Below are positions 168-4,857 of a stretch of 24,025 bases of DNA, one piece after another. This stretch comes from a virus (Duplodnaviria; Caudoviricetes): the IMG/VR virus record IMGVR_UViG_3300020042_003772, positions 1 to 24,025 of that record; one strand, 5' to 3'. Below the pieces are notes generated by a model that was given only the letters and a program-made list of their open reading frames with translations, did not search any database and was not told where the DNA came from. The position numbers and the translations under genes are program-made. Positions within the stretch are counted from its first letter, which is position 1. Each line of letters opens with the position of its first letter.

Positions 168-348
168 ACACATTTACGACTTTTATGTAAATACAGGCGA
201 ATTGGTTAATTTTAGCGCGGATATTCATAACGAAGTAATTGAGGCTTATCGGGTTGTTAATCCGCATTATCATTACAACCGCAGTTGCCCTGCGTGTGTA
301 TGCGATATGTTAAAAGACGTTTATAATTACTATAATAAAACAATATGA
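49..348 (+). CDS. small hypothetical protein with CxxCxC motif; the true start may be TTG at 145
   Basis: C-terminal SCPACVCDM motif; ATGA overlap with the next gene. The first 119 nt overlap the upstream GT frame. Confidence 0.6.
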   Translation: MKKQDKITAKRSGNGEEKNTTFSTSIPDVAPHLKVLAKHKHIYDFYVNTGELVNFSADIHNEVIEAYRVVNPHYHYNRSCPACVCDMLKDVYNYYNKTI

Positions 349-1013
349 TACACAAATTATTTTTAAACAACGGCGGTAATATTTGCAATAAATGGATTCA
401 CTATTTAGATATTTACGAAAAGCACTTTGCAAAGTTTGTAGGCAAAAAGTTTACAATGTTTGAAATCGGCGTTAGCAAAGGCGGCAGCGTAGAATTGTGG
501 CGCGATTACTTTGGCAAAGACGTTACGATAGTAGGAATTGATATTGACCAAAATTGCAAGCAGTACGAAGGTGAACAAATAAATATTGAAATCGGCGATC
601 AGGCAGATGTGCTTTTTTTAAATTCGCTTATTGACAAATACGGGATTCCCGATTTAGTTATTGACGACGGAAGCCACGTTATGCAGGATTTAATTAAGTC
701 CTTTAAATTTTTATATCCGCAGTTAAAATCGGGTAGCGTTTATTTAGCTGAAGATTTACACACGTGTTATATTTCCGAGCCTTACAACGGCAACAATCCT
801 AACACTTTTGTAAATATGGTTAAAAAGCATATTGACGAATTAAGCACAGGTAATTTAAAAATTCAAACCGCAAACAATAATGAATTATCTGAATTTTGGG
901 CAACGACTAATTCAATAACTTGTTACGATTCAATTATAGTTTATGAGAAAAGAAACCAGGGGCGTAGATTTGATTTAAATACAGGTAGCGAAAAACTTTT
1001 TAACCATGAATAA
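345..1013 (+). CDS. class I SAM-dependent methyltransferase (MycE/Methyltransf_24-like, probable sugar O-methyltransferase)
   Basis: Motifs FEIGVSKGGS, IVGIDID, GDQAD, LVIDDGSH, YLAEDLH. Confidence 0.85.
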   Translation: MIHKLFLNNGGNICNKWIHYLDIYEKHFAKFVGKKFTMFEIGVSKGGSVELWRDYFGKDVTIVGIDIDQNCKQYEGEQINIEIGDQADVLFLNSLIDKYGIPDLVIDDGSHVMQDLIKSFKFLYPQLKSGSVYLAEDLHTCYISEPYNGNNPNTFVNMVKKHIDELSTGNLKIQTANNNELSEFWATTNSITCYDSIIVYEKRNQGRRFDLNTGSEKLFNHE

Positions 1014-1635
1014 ATTAGTAGTAAACGTTCACGATCGTTTAGAAAACATTAAACTATGGATTAACGCTTGGGAACAATCCGAGCAACTCGATTACGAATT
1101 AGTGATAATTCAAAACCACCATGAGCCACAACCTGAATTTGAAGAGGTTTGCAAAGGCGTTAAATACATTAGACGTGTTGGAGTTGGTTACGATATCGGC
1201 AGTTTTCAAGATATTTGTAATGAGCGATTAGAGGGCTTTAGCAACGATTGGAATAAATTGTTATTCGTGTGCGATGATTGGCTACCGATGCGAAAAACAT
1301 TTTTAAAAGAGTTCGACGATAAGTATTCAAAAAATACGGTTGTATGCAATGAAATGAGCAACATCATTAAACCGCATATTAGAACGAGCGGGTTTTTAAT
1401 TGATAAGAATTTGAGTAAAAAGTTAAGGTTTGAAGTTGATCCGATTACAACAAAAGATGATTGCTGGAACTTTGAGCATAGAACGGCGCACTCATTTTTA
1501 GAACAATGCAAGCGTAATAATTACGAAGTAAAAACAGTATCACATATTTGGTGCGCTCCGATTTGGGATTCAGGACACCACCACCACACGAAAAGAATTT
1601 TGGAATATCAAACAAACTTTTATGAAGCTATCTAA
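1006..1635 (+). CDS. GT-A fold glycosyltransferase-like protein (GT2/RgpF-like)
   Basis: N-terminal beta strand LVVNVH, then ELVIIQN, GYDIGSF, LLFVCDD (DxD-like), PHIRTSGF, FEH. Confidence 0.6.
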   Translation: MNKLVVNVHDRLENIKLWINAWEQSEQLDYELVIIQNHHEPQPEFEEVCKGVKYIRRVGVGYDIGSFQDICNERLEGFSNDWNKLLFVCDDWLPMRKTFLKEFDDKYSKNTVVCNEMSNIIKPHIRTSGFLIDKNLSKKLRFEVDPITTKDDCWNFEHRTAHSFLEQCKRNNYEVKTVSHIWCAPIWDSGHHHHTKRILEYQTNFYEAI

Positions 1636-2215
1636 ATTAAAGGGCAACCCAAACAATCCCAGAATCATTAAAGACGATAAGTTTAAAAAACTTGTTAAAT
1701 CAATAAATGATTTTCCAAAAATGATGTCTTTACGTCCAATCGTAGTTGATGAGAATTTTATTGTGCAAGGTGGCAATATGCGATTAAAGGCATTGCAAGA
1801 AATCGGGTTTAAAGATATACCCGACGAGTGGGTTAAGCAAGTTAGCGACCTAAACGAAGATGAAAAGAAACAATTTATTATCAAAGATAACGTTGGCTTT
1901 GGCGAATGGGATTGGGACGATTTGGCGAATAATTGGGACGCGGAACAATTAACGGAGTGGGGTTTAGATATACCAAACTTTGTAAATAATAGCGATGAAT
2001 TTGGAACGGAGTTTAGTTTACCTGACGGCGACAAAGCACCATTTCAGCAAATGACTTTTACGCTTGCAGATGAACAAGCAACGCAAATAAAAAACGCTAT
2101 TGAAGAAATTAAGCGAAGTGAAGAATATAAATACGCCGAAACAATGGGCAACGAAAATTCAAATGGTAACGCACTTTATTTAATTATAATGCAATGGGCA
2201 GAGCAAAAGAAATAA
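1622..2215 (+). CDS. ParB/Srx-like N-terminal domain protein
   Basis: LKGNPNNPR, RPIVVDEN, GGNMRLKAL, IIKDNVGFGEWD: the ParB-like type usually found with phage DNA-modification enzymes next to the terminase. Confidence 0.85.
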   Translation: MKLSKLKGNPNNPRIIKDDKFKKLVKSINDFPKMMSLRPIVVDENFIVQGGNMRLKALQEIGFKDIPDEWVKQVSDLNEDEKKQFIIKDNVGFGEWDWDDLANNWDAEQLTEWGLDIPNFVNNSDEFGTEFSLPDGDKAPFQQMTFTLADEQATQIKNAIEEIKRSEEYKYAETMGNENSNGNALYLIIMQWAEQKK

Positions 2216-2979
2216 TCGTAAAAGTAATACCGTCAAAGGTTGCAAATGATTTTGTTAAAAAACATCATTATTCAGGCAAAGTTGTACCTAATTCAACTTT
2301 ACATTTTGGTTGCTTTTTAGATAATAATTTACACGGCGTTATGAGTTATGGAAATTCAATGGATAAATCTAAAGTTAAATTAGCCGTTGAAAATACAGGT
2401 TGGAACGAATTTATAGAATTAAATAGAATGGCATTTGACGAGTATTTACCTAAATATAGTGAAAGTCGTTGTATAGCAATCAGCATTAAATTAATAAAAA
2501 AAAATGCCCCACACATAAAATGGATTGTTTCTTTTGCAGACGGAAGTCAATGCGGAGACGGAACAATTTACAGGGCAAGCGGTTTTAAATTAATAGGTTT
2601 AAAAATAAATAATCAAATATTAAATTGGAACGGAAATATAATTGCTAAAAAAAGTTTAGATAATAAAAATTACCCTTCAATAAATGGTAAATATTTTTCA
2701 AGATATTTAATTGAAAAAGGAGAAGCAAAACCAATAGAGGGACATCAATTAAAATATATTTACTTAATAGATAAAACGTGTAAAATAACCGTTCCTATTT
2801 TACCATTTAGCAAAATAGATGAAATGGGCGCAGGAATGTATAAAGGCAAAAAAATAACCCTACAAGAGCGTAGGGTTACAAAGAGCGATGCAGTCGATTC
2901 GAACGCCACCCCTAATTTGGAAAACCAGTGTGCTACCATTACACCAACATCGCAAAACAAAAATAATAAAAGTAATTGA
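2194..2979 (+). CDS. mom: Mom-family (GNAT-fold) adenine hypermodification enzyme
   Basis: Motifs KHHYSGK, GVMSYG, IELNRM, SESR, IKWIVSFAD, GTIYRASGF, YIY, matching Mu Mom-like proteins as I recall the family. Confidence 0.8.
   Translation: MGRAKEIIVKVIPSKVANDFVKKHHYSGKVVPNSTLHFGCFLDNNLHGVMSYGNSMDKSKVKLAVENTGWNEFIELNRMAFDEYLPKYSESRCIAISIKLIKKNAPHIKWIVSFADGSQCGDGTIYRASGFKLIGLKINNQILNWNGNIIAKKSLDNKNYPSINGKYFSRYLIEKGEAKPIEGHQLKYIYLIDKTCKITVPILPFSKIDEMGAGMYKGKKITLQERRVTKSDAVDSNATPNLENQCATITPTSQNKNNKSN
2848..2878 (-). terminator. intrinsic terminator on the minus strand, directly downstream of the tRNA-like RNA
   Basis: Perfect 9-bp inverted repeat TAACCCTAC (2855-2863) / GTAGGGTTA (2870-2878) with a 6-nt loop, followed on the minus strand by T7 (A-run 2848-2854). 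Confidence 0.75.
2884..2953 (-). tRNA. tRNA-Gly(TCC)-like RNA with a non-canonical T-arm, antisense within the mom gene
   Basis: Reverse complement reads GCGATGT TG GTGT AATGGTA GCAC A CTGGT TTTCCAA ATTAG GGGT GGCG TTCGAAT CGAC T GCATCGC T. It has a 7-bp acceptor stem, a D-arm with GG, a 5-bp anticodon stem (2 GU pairs), TCC anticodon, TTCGAAT T-loop and U73. CCA is not encoded. Confidence 0.8.
2958..2965 (-). promoter_or_regulatory. Bacteroidota primary sigma -7 element driving the tRNA-like RNA
   Basis: Minus strand TATTTTTG matches TAnnTTTG and ends 4 nt before G1 of the tRNA-like element. The -33 position holds only a weak match (CGTG, 2988-2985). Confidence 0.55.
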
Positions 2980-3230
2980 AAAAGCACGTTAGAATATATT
3001 TAAATCATTTCGGCTTTGACCAAACAGATTTTACGCCGTGCGAAGTTTGTGAATCAAAGGCGGTTGATATCCACCACATACACGCACGCGGAATGGGTGG
3101 CACAAAGAAAGCGGATAACATCGAAAACTTAATGGCGCTTTGTAGAAACTGCCATATTGAATACGGCGATAAGAAACAACATATTGAATTTTTAAACGAA
3201 ATACATATTAAGAAAATAGCCAACAAATAG
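2976..3230 (+). CDS. HNH endonuclease (packaging-associated)
   Basis: CEVC, DIHHI, GG, NLMALCRNCH; TTG start overlaps the mom TGA stop; lies just upstream of the terminase genes. Confidence 0.9.
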   Translation: MKKHVRIYLNHFGFDQTDFTPCEVCESKAVDIHHIHARGMGGTKKADNIENLMALCRNCHIEYGDKKQHIEFLNEIHIKKIANK

Positions 3231-3237
3231 CGTAGAT

Positions 3238-3606
3238 ATGCCAAACCCACAAAACATAGAAAAGTATAAATTTAAAAAAGGCGAGGTTGCAAACCCGAAC
3301 GGACGACCGCGCAAATATGTTTCAATCTTAAAAGATAGCGGTTATAAGTTAAGCGAAATCAACGATACCATCCAAAACATGATGGCGATGGATTTAACCG
3401 AATTAGGCGAAGTATTTAAGAATCCCAAAGGCACGATATTAGAAAAGACGATTGCCAACGCTATGCGTAAATCACTTGAGAAGGGCTCATTATATTCGCT
3501 TGAAACATTATTGACGCGTGTGTATGGCAAGCCAAAAGAAACGAGCGCAGTAACTACAGATGGCAAAATAGAGTTTATTGTTACAAAAGGAAAAACAATT
3601 TTATAA
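3238..3606 (+). CDS. terS: terminase small subunit
   Basis: N-terminal FKKGEVANPNGRP motif, helical core, RVYGKP; positioned between HNH and TerL. Confidence 0.75.
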   Translation: MPNPQNIEKYKFKKGEVANPNGRPRKYVSILKDSGYKLSEINDTIQNMMAMDLTELGEVFKNPKGTILEKTIANAMRKSLEKGSLYSLETLLTRVYGKPKETSAVTTDGKIEFIVTKGKTIL

Positions 3607-3698
3607 TGTGGCGAGTATTTTTAATCGAGTTTATTGTAGTATTAATGATTTCGTTAATGTGGGTTAATATTATTGATAAGCATAAAAACGAAAAGTAA
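3606..3698 (+). CDS. 30-aa single-TM membrane peptide
   Basis: Not in the ORF track. MWRVFLIEFIVVLMISLMWVNIIDKHKNEK*; TAATG-coupled to terS and ends 4 nt before terL. Confidence 0.55.
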   Translation: MWRVFLIEFIVVLMISLMWVNIIDKHKNEK

Positions 3699-3702
3699 AT
3701 AA

Positions 3703-4857
3703 TTGCAAATACCGATCCCAGAACTTCACACTAATCAACAAAAGATATTTGACTGCGCTTCGCGGTTTAGGGTTGTTATGTGTGGGCGAAGGTTTGGTAA
3801 ATCGGAGCTTGCACAACTTGAAATAATCTTTGAGGCAATTAAAGGGAATAGCGTTGCATACATCACACCTACATATCAACTCGCTAAAACTTTTTTCAAT
3901 AAATTAATAAAAACTATTCCGTTTGAAAATAATAAATCGGACTTAACAATTAGCTTTCCGAACGACGGCAATGTAATGTTTTTTACAGGCGAACGATTAG
4001 ACAATTTGAGGGGGCGTAAATTTCATTTAGTAATTATAGACGAAGCTTCGTTTATTCCTAATCTCGAAGACGGTTGGTTAAATTCAATCCGTCCAACGCT
4101 TACCGATTATAAAGGGCGTGCGTTATTCGTATCAACGCCAAAAGGTAAAAATTATTTTTACTCACTATTTATGAAAGCCGATGGCAACGATTGGCAATCA
4201 TTTAAATTTACAACATACGATAACCCTTACATTGATCGTACGGAAATAGACGATGCAAAAACACAGTTACCGCCTGCAGTATTTGAACAGGAATACATGG
4301 CAAACGCAATGGAGAATGCATCTAATCCATTTGGCAATCAACACATAATCGACTGCGTGCGACCTTTGAGCGTTTTACCTGTGGCGTATTATGGAATAGA
4401 TTTAGCAAAGTCCTTTGATTATACCGTTATTATTGGGCTTGATGCAAACGGGCACGTCGCACATTTTCAACGATTTCAAAAAGATTGGGCGCAAACCAAA
4501 GAAACTATTTTAAGGATTGATAAGAGCAAGCCAGTTGTAATTGATAGTACAGGCGTTGGCGATGCAATCACCGAAGATTTACAACGCCATTTTAACGCGA
4601 TGCATGGATTTAAATATACTTCATCAAGCAAGCAACAATTAATGGAGGCTTTGGCTTCATCAATCCACAAACGCGAAATATTTTACCCCGATAACGAAAT
4701 CAAAAGCGAGTTGGAAATATTTGAATATCAATACACCGCAACGGGCGTTCGATACAATGCGCCAACAGGTTTTCACGACGATTGCGTTAATGCTTTAGCT
4801 TTAGCAAATAAATGCAAAAACAATTATAAACACGCTGGAGTTTACCGCTTCATCTAA
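3703..4857 (+). CDS. terL: terminase large subunit
   Basis: Walker A GRRFGKS, LRG, Walker B LVIIDE, STPKG coupling motif, RNase H-like nuclease motifs GIDLA, IDSTGVG, HDD. Confidence 0.95.
   Translation: MQIPIPELHTNQQKIFDCASRFRVVMCGRRFGKSELAQLEIIFEAIKGNSVAYITPTYQLAKTFFNKLIKTIPFENNKSDLTISFPNDGNVMFFTGERLDNLRGRKFHLVIIDEASFIPNLEDGWLNSIRPTLTDYKGRALFVSTPKGKNYFYSLFMKADGNDWQSFKFTTYDNPYIDRTEIDDAKTQLPPAVFEQEYMANAMENASNPFGNQHIIDCVRPLSVLPVAYYGIDLAKSFDYTVIIGLDANGHVAHFQRFQKDWAQTKETILRIDKSKPVVIDSTGVGDAITEDLQRHFNAMHGFKYTSSSKQQLMEALASSIHKREIFYPDNEIKSELEIFEYQYTATGVRYNAPTGFHDDCVNALALANKCKNNYKHAGVYRFI

What the first reader, a model, noticed from the sequence alone, without database searches (positions are those of the whole stretch)
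2194..2979. Mom-family DNA hypermodification gene contains its own antisense tRNA-Gly-like transcription unit, a candidate dedicated glycyl donor
Seen in sequence: the last ~130 nt of the mom ORF hold, on the minus strand and in the correct order, a TAnnTTTG -7 box (2965-2958), a 70-nt cloverleaf with TCC anticodon starting 4 nt later (2953-2884), and a 9-bp hairpin plus T7 terminator (2878-2848). The bacterial GlyRS identity elements are all intact (G1-C72, C2-G71, G3-C70, C35, C36, U73). Established: Mu Mom is GNAT-fold and makes N6-carbamoylmethyladenine, a glycinamide-like group. Other GNAT-fold enzymes (FemXAB) use Gly-tRNA, and staphylococci keep non-proteinogenic tRNA-Gly for them. I recall recent work reporting Gly-tRNA-Gly as the Mom donor; this should be verified. 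Inference: the phage supplies a private Gly-carrying RNA for DNA modification, making a two-component enzyme-plus-RNA anti-restriction system in one locus.
Basis: partly seen in the sequence, partly recalled or inferred. Interest (0 to 1): 0.95.

Follow-up and report, generated by a model that had tools for sequence, protein, structure and literature searches.

The report
Phage glycine-carrier RNA bolted onto Mom
This phage's DNA-disguising Mom gene overlaps an oddly built glycine-tRNA gene that sits at the same spot in nearly all close relatives and is absent from related phage regions lacking Mom, so it likely gives the enzyme a private glycine supply kept away from the ribosome (untested at the bench).

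Summary
Observation confirmed. ORF 2194-2979 is a Mom-family GNAT (Pfam E 1e-52; fold Z 20 to Mu Mom). A tRNA-Gly(UCC)-like gene lies antisense at 2953-2884, with a Bacteroidota -7 box and a terminator.

It belongs to a family. It sits at the mom 3' end in 80/80 close homologues (53 antisense, 27 sense), 58/63 loci of a second Mom clade and 74/80 proteobacterial-type loci, but in 0/78 mom-less loci of related phages. RNA-first searches found mom beside 108/120 viral and 109/119 metagenomic hits.

The cloverleaf covaries (17/20 pairs) and keeps the GlyRS identity set. All 54 close variants carry a bulged A in the T-stem at the EF-Tu contact; many have lost U33, the 7-nt loop or the D-arm.

Best reading (0.75): a dedicated Gly donor for Mom that avoids EF-Tu. 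Expression, charging and use are untested.

Correction: full nesting here is incidental (9/80); the stop usually falls inside the RNA. Most Mu-like Moms lack it.

Not found in print in ten searches. The scan noted similar Mom/tRNA-Gly pairs on other DNA.

The parts
2194..2979 (+). Mom-family GNAT DNA adenine glycyl-transferase (261 aa). The conserved body ends near residue 228; residues ~229-261 are the read-through of the antisense RNA unit.
   Evidence: Pfam PF25680 E 1.3e-52; 8bv8 E 6.5e-21; model pLDDT 90.4, best fold match 8bv8 Z 20.1, rmsd 2.7 over 179 residues, next Z 13.3. H25, Y26, R78, S91, D116, Y126 correspond to Mu H58, Y59, R111, S124, D149, Y159; Mu R151 is Q119.
2884..2953 (-). 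70-nt tRNA-Gly(UCC)-like RNA gene, G1 to U73, no encoded CCA; 4-bp T-stem with an unpaired A on its 3' strand
   Evidence: ARAGORN, Rfam 36.4 bits. Family covariation: 99.7% of cells paired, 17/20 pairs with two-sided changes. Uninterrupted 5-bp T register 60% paired.
2958..2965 (-). Bacteroidota-type -7 promoter box TATTTTTG. With its G at -5 the predicted start falls exactly on G1 of the RNA.
   Evidence: Sequence; consensus and position from PMC6847099 passages; TAnnTTTG 2-25 nt upstream in 40/48 distinct antisense units against shuffle mean 2.25, max 8. Function inferred.
2848..2879 (-). Intrinsic-terminator-like hairpin plus T7, overprinted on mom codons 219-229 (KKITLQERRVT)
   Evidence: Terminator-like element in 28/48 antisense against 0/51 sense units, with varied but paired stems. 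Function inferred.
1622..2215 (+). ParB-N-like gene overlapping the mom start (context; companion of this Mom clade but not specific to it)
   Evidence: PHROG ParB-like hits; in 80/80 close mom loci but also in most mom-less control loci.
2976..4857 (+). Context: HNH endonuclease (2976-3230), DUF5681 terminase-small-subunit-like gene (3238-3606), terminase large subunit (3703-4857). Mom and its RNA sit at the head of the packaging module.
   Evidence: Pfam and PHROG. 'Small subunit' is inferred from position.

Best explanation
The locus is a Mom DNA-modifying enzyme gene with a remodelled glycine-tRNA gene fixed at its 3' end, and that RNA likely serves as the enzyme's dedicated glycine donor. 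Steps: (1) Host RNA polymerase likely transcribes the 70-nt RNA from its own -7 box to its own terminator (inferred). (2) The 3' trailer is likely trimmed and CCA completed by host enzymes (inferred; C74 is encoded in 99/99 units, full CCA in 8/99). (3) Host GlyRS likely charges it (identity set shown, charging inferred). (4) The bulged T-stem likely weakens EF-Tu binding, so the Gly-RNA stays out of translation (bulge shown, effect inferred). (5) Mom likely moves the glycine to N6 of adenine in phage DNA before packaging, giving N6-carbamoylmethyladenine and restriction resistance (shown for Mu Mom in PMC13219725, inferred here).
For: Linkage, Mom first: 80/80 close viral homologues (75/80 by a stricter descriptor; 39/80 by default ARAGORN); 58/63 loci of a second clade about 30% identical; 74/80 proteobacterial-type loci and 19/30 cellular-genome loci. 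Control: of 80 loci fetched by the neighbouring terS-like gene, 2 have mom and only those 2 have the RNA. Linkage, RNA first: mom within 150 nt in 108/120 viral hits, and 10 of the other 12 show a Mom C-terminal peptide on a cut flank; mom within 300 nt in 109/119 metagenome hits, 77/80 of those with full flanks. Structure is selected. GlyRS determinants G1-C72, C2-G71, C35, C36, U73 (PMC10464925) are kept while position 34 varies. Translation features decay: bulged A in 54/54 distinct close RNAs against uninterrupted 5-bp T-stems in 8/8 host tRNA-Gly; a 7-nt loop with U33 in only 15/54; 48/58 distinct proteobacterial-type RNAs are 64-67 nt, lack the D-arm and mostly have 5-nt loops. Pairs 49:65, 50:64 and 51:63 set EF-Tu affinity (PMC11231383). 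Mom accepts every E. coli tRNA-Gly isoacceptor (PMC13219725).
Against: No data on expression, charging, EF-Tu binding or DNA modification. Mu Mom works with host tRNA-Gly alone, and most Mu-like and other distant Mom loci show no such RNA nearby (8/80; 1/17), so it is not a chemical necessity. Within the window's own clade several Bacillota loci lack it at the mom end. Two metagenome hits with long upstream flanks have no mom (L569, L571). The window's copy is among the most tRNA-like (U33, 7-nt loop, D-loop GG, TTCGAAT) and might still translate. An engineered D-armless tRNA-Gly was barely charged by L. plantarum GlyRS, which weighs against the short forms. Mu's essential R151 is Q here, so activity of this clade is not assured. 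I found no measurement of a T-stem bulge's effect on EF-Tu. Loci are related and redundant, so counts overstate independent cases.
Confidence: 0.75

Rival explanations
1. It is an ordinary translating tRNA-Gly that tops up the general pool Mom drains, with no preference for Mom.
For: The window's copy keeps U33, a 7-nt loop, D-loop GG and TTCGAAT, and passes ARAGORN and Rfam. This reading also predicts linkage to mom. Mu Mom uses normal isoacceptors.
Against: The family has an invariant T-stem bulge (54/54 against 0/8 host), 8-nt loops in 21/54, non-U33 in 20/54, and D-armless forms with 5-nt loops at the same position. GGA is only 69 of 354 Gly codons in the 15 window ORFs counted.
Confidence: 0.1
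2. The RNA mainly restrains mom expression: as an antisense transcript, or in sense copies as a processing site whose cleavage leaves a stop-less mom mRNA (the model proposed for selB-selC).
For: The RNA overlaps the ORF in 66/80 close homologues and lies wholly inside it in 62/74 proteobacterial-type loci. Mukai proposed this for selB-selC (PMC8124441). Compatible with the best explanation as a second role.
Against: Regulation alone does not need Gly identity, which is kept in both orientations. In 14/80 the stop precedes the RNA, and in L175 and L185 the RNA is about 1.3 kb upstream.
Confidence: 0.08
3. The RNA is a decoy or replacement against host tRNA-cutting or Gly-tRNA-acetylating defences, travelling with mom as part of a counter-defence module.
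For: Altered anticodon loops and T-stem could evade such enzymes. TacT acts on Gly-tRNA-Gly (PMC13219725).
Against: Does not explain placement within about 70 nt of the mom end in three Mom groups or absence from 78/78 mom-less control loci.
Confidence: 0.05
4. It is a chance cloverleaf, or a relic of a tRNA integration site.
For: The single-sequence fold is unremarkable. tRNA genes are common phage integration sites (recalled).
Against: 289 cells with two-sided changes against 75.6 in shuffles and at most 47 in slid controls; full length; unlike host tRNA-Gly; no strict-descriptor hit in 427 kb of control loci except beside mom.
Confidence: 0.01

Closest known systems
Phage Mu Mom (PF25680; PDB 8bv8; Silva et al. 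2026, PMC13219725)
   Same: GNAT fold (Z 20.1), six of seven active-site residues checked, expected Gly-tRNA-dependent N6-adenine chemistry.
   Different: Mu Mom is described as scavenging host tRNA-Gly; no phage-encoded donor appears in the passages and sections read. Here an RNA gene is attached, R151 is Q, W48 is K, and a ParB-like gene precedes.
Non-proteogenic tRNA-Gly NP1-NP3 of Staphylococcus aureus (donors for FmhB/FemA; PMC7826273)
   Same: tRNA-Gly keeping GlyRS identity, with a T-stem altered at the EF-Tu contact, serving a GNAT-fold transferase.
   Different: NP tRNAs use weak pairs A49-U65, U50-A64, A51-U63 in an intact stem and serve cell-wall synthesis. Here there is a bulged A, a viral gene fixed to the enzyme gene, DNA as the inferred acceptor, and D-armless variants.
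selC (tRNA-Sec) nested in or overlapping selB (Mukai 2021, PMC8124441)
   Same: A tRNA gene nested in, partly overlapping or reversed against the 3' end of its partner protein's gene, producing incidental C-terminal tails.
   Different: SelB-tRNA-Sec is a translation pair in bacteria; this is a phage enzyme with an inferred non-translational substrate RNA.
Canonical bacterial tRNA-Gly(UCC) (Rfam RF00005)
   Same: Acceptor identity, anticodon, cloverleaf; the window's copy passes the Rfam threshold.
   Different: 8/8 host tRNA-Gly have an uninterrupted 5-bp T-stem and a 7-nt loop with U33. Rfam found nothing in 11/11 divergent loci tested.

Membership tests
Mom family (PF25680) | Profile match above the curated cut-off | tested here: met
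   178.9 bits against 27.1, residues 7-207.
Mom family (PF25680) | GNAT fold closest to Mu Mom | tested here: met
   8bv8 Z 20.1, rmsd 2.7, 179 aligned, next 13.3.
Mom family (PF25680) | Residues needed in Mu Mom: H58, Y59, R111, S124, D149, Y159 | tested here: met
   H25, Y26, R78, S91, D116, Y126 (residue list).
Mom family (PF25680) | R151 and dimer residue W48 (found needed in Mu Mom; not known to define the family) | tested here: inconclusive
   Q119 and K15 here. Q in 218/246 RNA-bearing proteins, R in 56/76 RNA-less ones; confounded with clade, and a one-residue gap lies next to this column.
Mom family (PF25680) | Makes N6-carbamoylmethyl-dA from Gly-tRNA | not testable with these tools
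   Needs LC-MS.
Canonical translating tRNA-Gly | GlyRS identity set G1-C72, C2-G71, C35, C36, U73 | tested here: met
   Window copy and 54/54 distinct close RNAs. The acceptor ends were part of the extraction pattern, but no locus was dropped (80/80).
Canonical translating tRNA-Gly | Uninterrupted 5-bp T-stem | tested here: not met
   Pair 51-63 is unpaired in 54/54 and the canonical register is 60% paired; the bulged register is 100% paired; host 8/8 canonical.
Canonical translating tRNA-Gly | 7-nt anticodon loop with U33 | tested here: inconclusive
   Met in the window's copy; met in only 15/54 and 14/37 relatives.
Non-proteogenic tRNA-Gly of the staphylococcal NP type | T-stem pairs A49-U65, U50-A64, A51-U63 | tested here: not met
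   G-U, G-C, bulged A, C-G, G-C here. Not a member; may work alike.
Non-proteogenic tRNA-Gly of the staphylococcal NP type | Charged with Gly, weak EF-Tu binding, used by a GNAT transferase | not testable with these tools
   Bench assays needed.
tRNA gene nested in its partner's ORF (selB-selC type) | Overlap with the 3' end of the partner gene, in either orientation | tested here: met
   66/80 overlap; 53 antisense, 27 sense. Architecture only; no homology claimed.

The most novel reading that the evidence does not exclude
These Mom clades and their RNAs form an orthogonal enzyme-plus-carrier pair. The Mom (Q in place of R151, extra C-terminal segment) reads the bulged T-stem and prefers or needs its own RNA over host tRNA-Gly. 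That would be a virus-encoded aminoacyl-carrier RNA class, including D-armless 64-67-nt forms, that left translation to feed DNA modification and is swapped as a cassette between Mom clades and strands.
Probability: 0.3. Interest if true: 0.94.

Novelty: new variant of a known kind. Interest (0 to 1): 0.84.

Why it matters
Mom's use of Gly-tRNA was only recently established and is described as scavenging host tRNA. A large, widespread Mom lineage that brings its own remodelled tRNA would answer, for one case, why phages carry tRNAs: as a biosynthetic cofactor rather than a decoder. It would extend dedicated tRNAs from cell-wall synthesis to viral DNA protection and define an RNA family that standard finders largely miss. 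It would also give a natural EF-Tu-avoiding, GlyRS-chargeable scaffold. An isolated phage (Psychrobacter phage vB_PmaS_Y8A, OQ059336.1) carries two unannotated copies, so the idea can be tested now.

Tried and rejected
Sequencing runs: no RNA holder was listed, so no reads were laid; this is no evidence either way. Single-sequence folding gave no cloverleaf and z -1.2; uninformative for a tRNA. The sigma-70 scan found no consensus promoter next to the RNA; two 9/12 minus-strand sites end at 3028 and 2993, and that scan does not cover Bacteroidota promoters. Rejected: that nesting is a conserved feature or the protein tail functional (stop position varies); that antisense orientation defines the system (27/80 sense); that all Moms have the RNA; an uninterrupted 5-bp T-stem; a GGA-codon supplement. 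A relaxed descriptor had 3.5-10% background (34/973 and 78/780 windows), so strict counts are quoted. Sense copies mostly lack their own -7 box (11/51), so an own promoter is supported only for antisense units. The careful tree did not finish; the quick one is used. NCBIfam has no model for this protein. No Foldseek search against solved structures was obtained; the fold comparison rests on VIA-align. I could not check whether the active Mom homologues A and B of PMC13219725 belong to the RNA-bearing clades: the main supplement and source-data file were not readable.

Full report
1. The observation. The window is a 24-kb virus record with terminase, portal and lysozyme-like genes. ORF 2194-2979 is a Mom-family protein: Pfam PF25680 E 1.3e-52, PHROG 1384, Mu Mom 8bv8 E 6.5e-21. 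An AlphaFold model of residues 1-229 (pLDDT 90.4) matches 8bv8 best among 48,161 chains (Z 20.1, rmsd 2.7 over 179 residues; next 13.3). Mu residues H58, Y59, R111, S124, D149 and Y159 are kept; R151 is Q and W48 is K. On the minus strand ARAGORN and Rfam each call one tRNA in the whole window, Gly(TCC) at 2953-2884. TATTTTTG lies at 2965-2958, and a hairpin plus T7 at 2879-2848. In Flavobacterium the box's G is position -5 (PMC6847099, passages), which would put the start exactly on G1. Singly these signals are weak: the box occurs 20 times on that strand, and the RNA's minimum-energy fold is not a cloverleaf.

2. It is a family tied to Mom. Among the 80 best viral loci of close homologues (63-94% identity, of 574 confirmed), default ARAGORN called a tRNA in 39, always at the mom 3' end: 35 Gly and 4 unnamed with a TC-containing loop. 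An acceptor-stem pattern found the element in 80/80, 53 antisense and 27 sense; a stricter, independent descriptor found 75/80 with no hit elsewhere in 415 kb. Across 54 distinct RNAs the cloverleaf is paired in 99.7% of cells, 17/20 pairs show two-sided changes, and slid controls reach 37-54%. As a control I fetched 80 loci by the neighbouring terS-like gene: 2 carry a mom, only about 30% identical to the window's, and exactly those 2 carry the RNA. This control covers about 3 kb around terS, not whole genomes. That second Mom clade has the RNA in 58/63 loci; two of the five misses are cut short. A proteobacterial-type set has it in 74/80, and the six misses show it by eye. Cellular genomes have it at the mom end in 19/30 loci, in Bacteroidota, Bacillota, Pseudomonadota and a Patescibacteria bin. 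Starting from the RNA instead, mom lay within 150 nt in 108/120 viral hits; 10 of the other 12 show a Mom C-terminal peptide on a cut flank, and 2 are undetermined. In metagenomes mom lay within 300 nt in 109/119 hits, 77/80 with full flanks; two with long flanks had none. All counts are loci, many redundant or related.

3. Limits. Mu-like Moms mostly lack it: 8/80 loci (63 with enough downstream DNA), in a different short form, mostly with an unbroken T-stem. Of 17 GenBank phage loci sampled from 163 matching records, only Psychrobacter phage Y8A has it: two tandem, unannotated, D-armless copies with encoded CCA right after mom. Several Bacillota loci inside the window's clade lack it at the mom end.

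4. Anatomy. Kept: G1-C72, C2-G71, U73 and the anticodon CC, the bacterial GlyRS determinants (PMC10464925, passages), while position 34 varies. The acceptor ends were part of my pattern, but no locus was lost to it. Changed: every close RNA has an unpaired A on the 3' side of the T-stem, two pairs from the acceptor junction (54/54; also 37/37 in the second clade, though those were picked by a model containing the bulge). 8/8 tRNA-Gly from five host genomes have an unbroken stem. Pairs 49:65, 50:64 and 51:63 set EF-Tu affinity (PMC11231383, passages), and staphylococcal non-proteogenic tRNA-Gly differ there (PMC7826273, two passages). Only 15/54 have a 7-nt loop with U33; 21/54 have 8-nt loops. 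In the proteobacterial-type set 48/58 distinct RNAs are 64-67 nt with no D-arm, mostly 5-nt loops, and 52/58 encode CCA; Rfam missed 11/11 divergent loci. These forms look unable to decode (inference). Against: an engineered D-armless tRNA-Gly was barely charged by one GlyRS, and the window's own copy is among the most canonical.

5. Gene architecture. The conserved protein ends near residue 228. The stop is inside the RNA in 57/80, before it in 14/80 and beyond it in 9/80, so the window's tail is incidental. Antisense units have the -7 box in 40/48 (shuffle mean 2.25) and a terminator in 28/48, overprinted on the last conserved mom codons; sense units have 11/51 and 0/51 and are probably cut from the mom transcript. 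On a quick IQ-TREE of 149 proteins the antisense label needs 14 changes, at least 11 forced by well-supported branches, with opposite-strand sisters such as the window and L002. I collapsed near-copies only within a label, which inflates the mixing. One identical RNA occurs with both Mom clades. The RNA unit is thus likely exchanged or inverted at the mom 3' end while staying attached.

6. Mechanism. Mu Mom transfers glycine from Gly-tRNA-Gly to N6 of adenine in double-stranded DNA and accepts all three E. coli isoacceptors (PMC13219725: abstract and sections 9, 10, 13, 14, 38 read). I infer that the phage RNA is charged by host GlyRS, escapes EF-Tu and supplies Mom late in infection (0.75). 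Shown here: the protein family, the RNA's structure, its identity set, the bulge and the linkage. Inferred: transcription, CCA addition, charging, EF-Tu avoidance, use by Mom and DNA modification. Rivals: general pool top-up (0.10), regulation of mom (0.08; may coexist), decoy (0.05), chance or integration relic (0.01). A Bacteroidota host is inferred from the promoter type and from Saprospiraceae and Chitinophagaceae hits.

7. Novelty. Ten full-text searches (five aimed at a phage tRNA beside mom: 9, 68, 96, 104, 120) found no paper describing this pairing. Term searches of the Mom paper's main text, its one readable supplementary file and the preprint found no mention. The main supplement was unreadable, and subscription journals are mostly outside the library. 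PMC5389517 passages show no tRNA-Gly class; PMC7261163 was seen only in listings. Each ingredient has a precedent: Mom, staphylococcal non-proteogenic tRNA-Gly, and selC nested or reversed in selB (PMC8124441, abstract and Results). I therefore file it as a new variant of a known kind. Earlier notes of this scan report Mom with tRNA-Gly-like RNAs on other genomes; they are not counted as support. One of them found its RNA family mostly without Mom, which prompted the RNA-first tests above; that does not hold for this family.

Noticed in passing
L191:2162-2229 and 2234-2302 (Psychrobacter phage vB_PmaS_Y8A, OQ059336.1): Two tandem, unannotated D-armless Gly-like RNAs with encoded CCA between mom and terS in an isolated phage; the best test system.
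   Followed up: partly
L015, L027, L069, L080 RNAs (alignment A1): 4/54 RNAs have G3-U70, recalled as the AlaRS determinant, with U73 and a TCC anticodon; they could be mischarged or serve another amino acid.
   Followed up: no
L180:1725-1794: Mom-adjacent RNA with Gly acceptor identity, T-stem bulge and CCA but a collapsed TTT loop without CC.
   Followed up: no
L178, L179, L181, L182, L183, L189: Clostridial loci with two tandem mom genes followed by one or two tRNA-like RNAs, some with unbroken T-stems and odd loops.
   Followed up: no
L175:315-385; L185:1695-1766: The RNA sits about 1.3 kb upstream of mom, in L175 ahead of two ParB-like genes.
   Followed up: partly
L569:1426-1529; L571: The same RNA type without mom: in L569 after a 435-aa ORF that looks glycosyltransferase-like by eye (not tested), in L571 after a ParB-like ORF.
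   Followed up: partly
L514, L526, L533, L554, L558, L559, L562, L564: A distinct 66-70-nt Gly-like RNA with encoded CCA and mostly unbroken T-stem at the end of some Mu-related Moms.
   Followed up: no
L308:2808-3615; L017/L018: L308 has the RNA closest to the window's (63/70 identical) but its mom is frameshifted before the last segment; L017/L018 have an in-frame stop in the GAGMYKG motif.
   Followed up: no
window 1622-2215: A ParB-N-like gene overlaps the mom start; present in 80/80 close mom loci but also in most mom-less control loci.
   Followed up: partly
window 345-1635: A methyltransferase-like ORF (PHROG 21658) and an unassigned 209-aa ORF precede the ParB-like gene; possibly more modification genes.
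   Followed up: no
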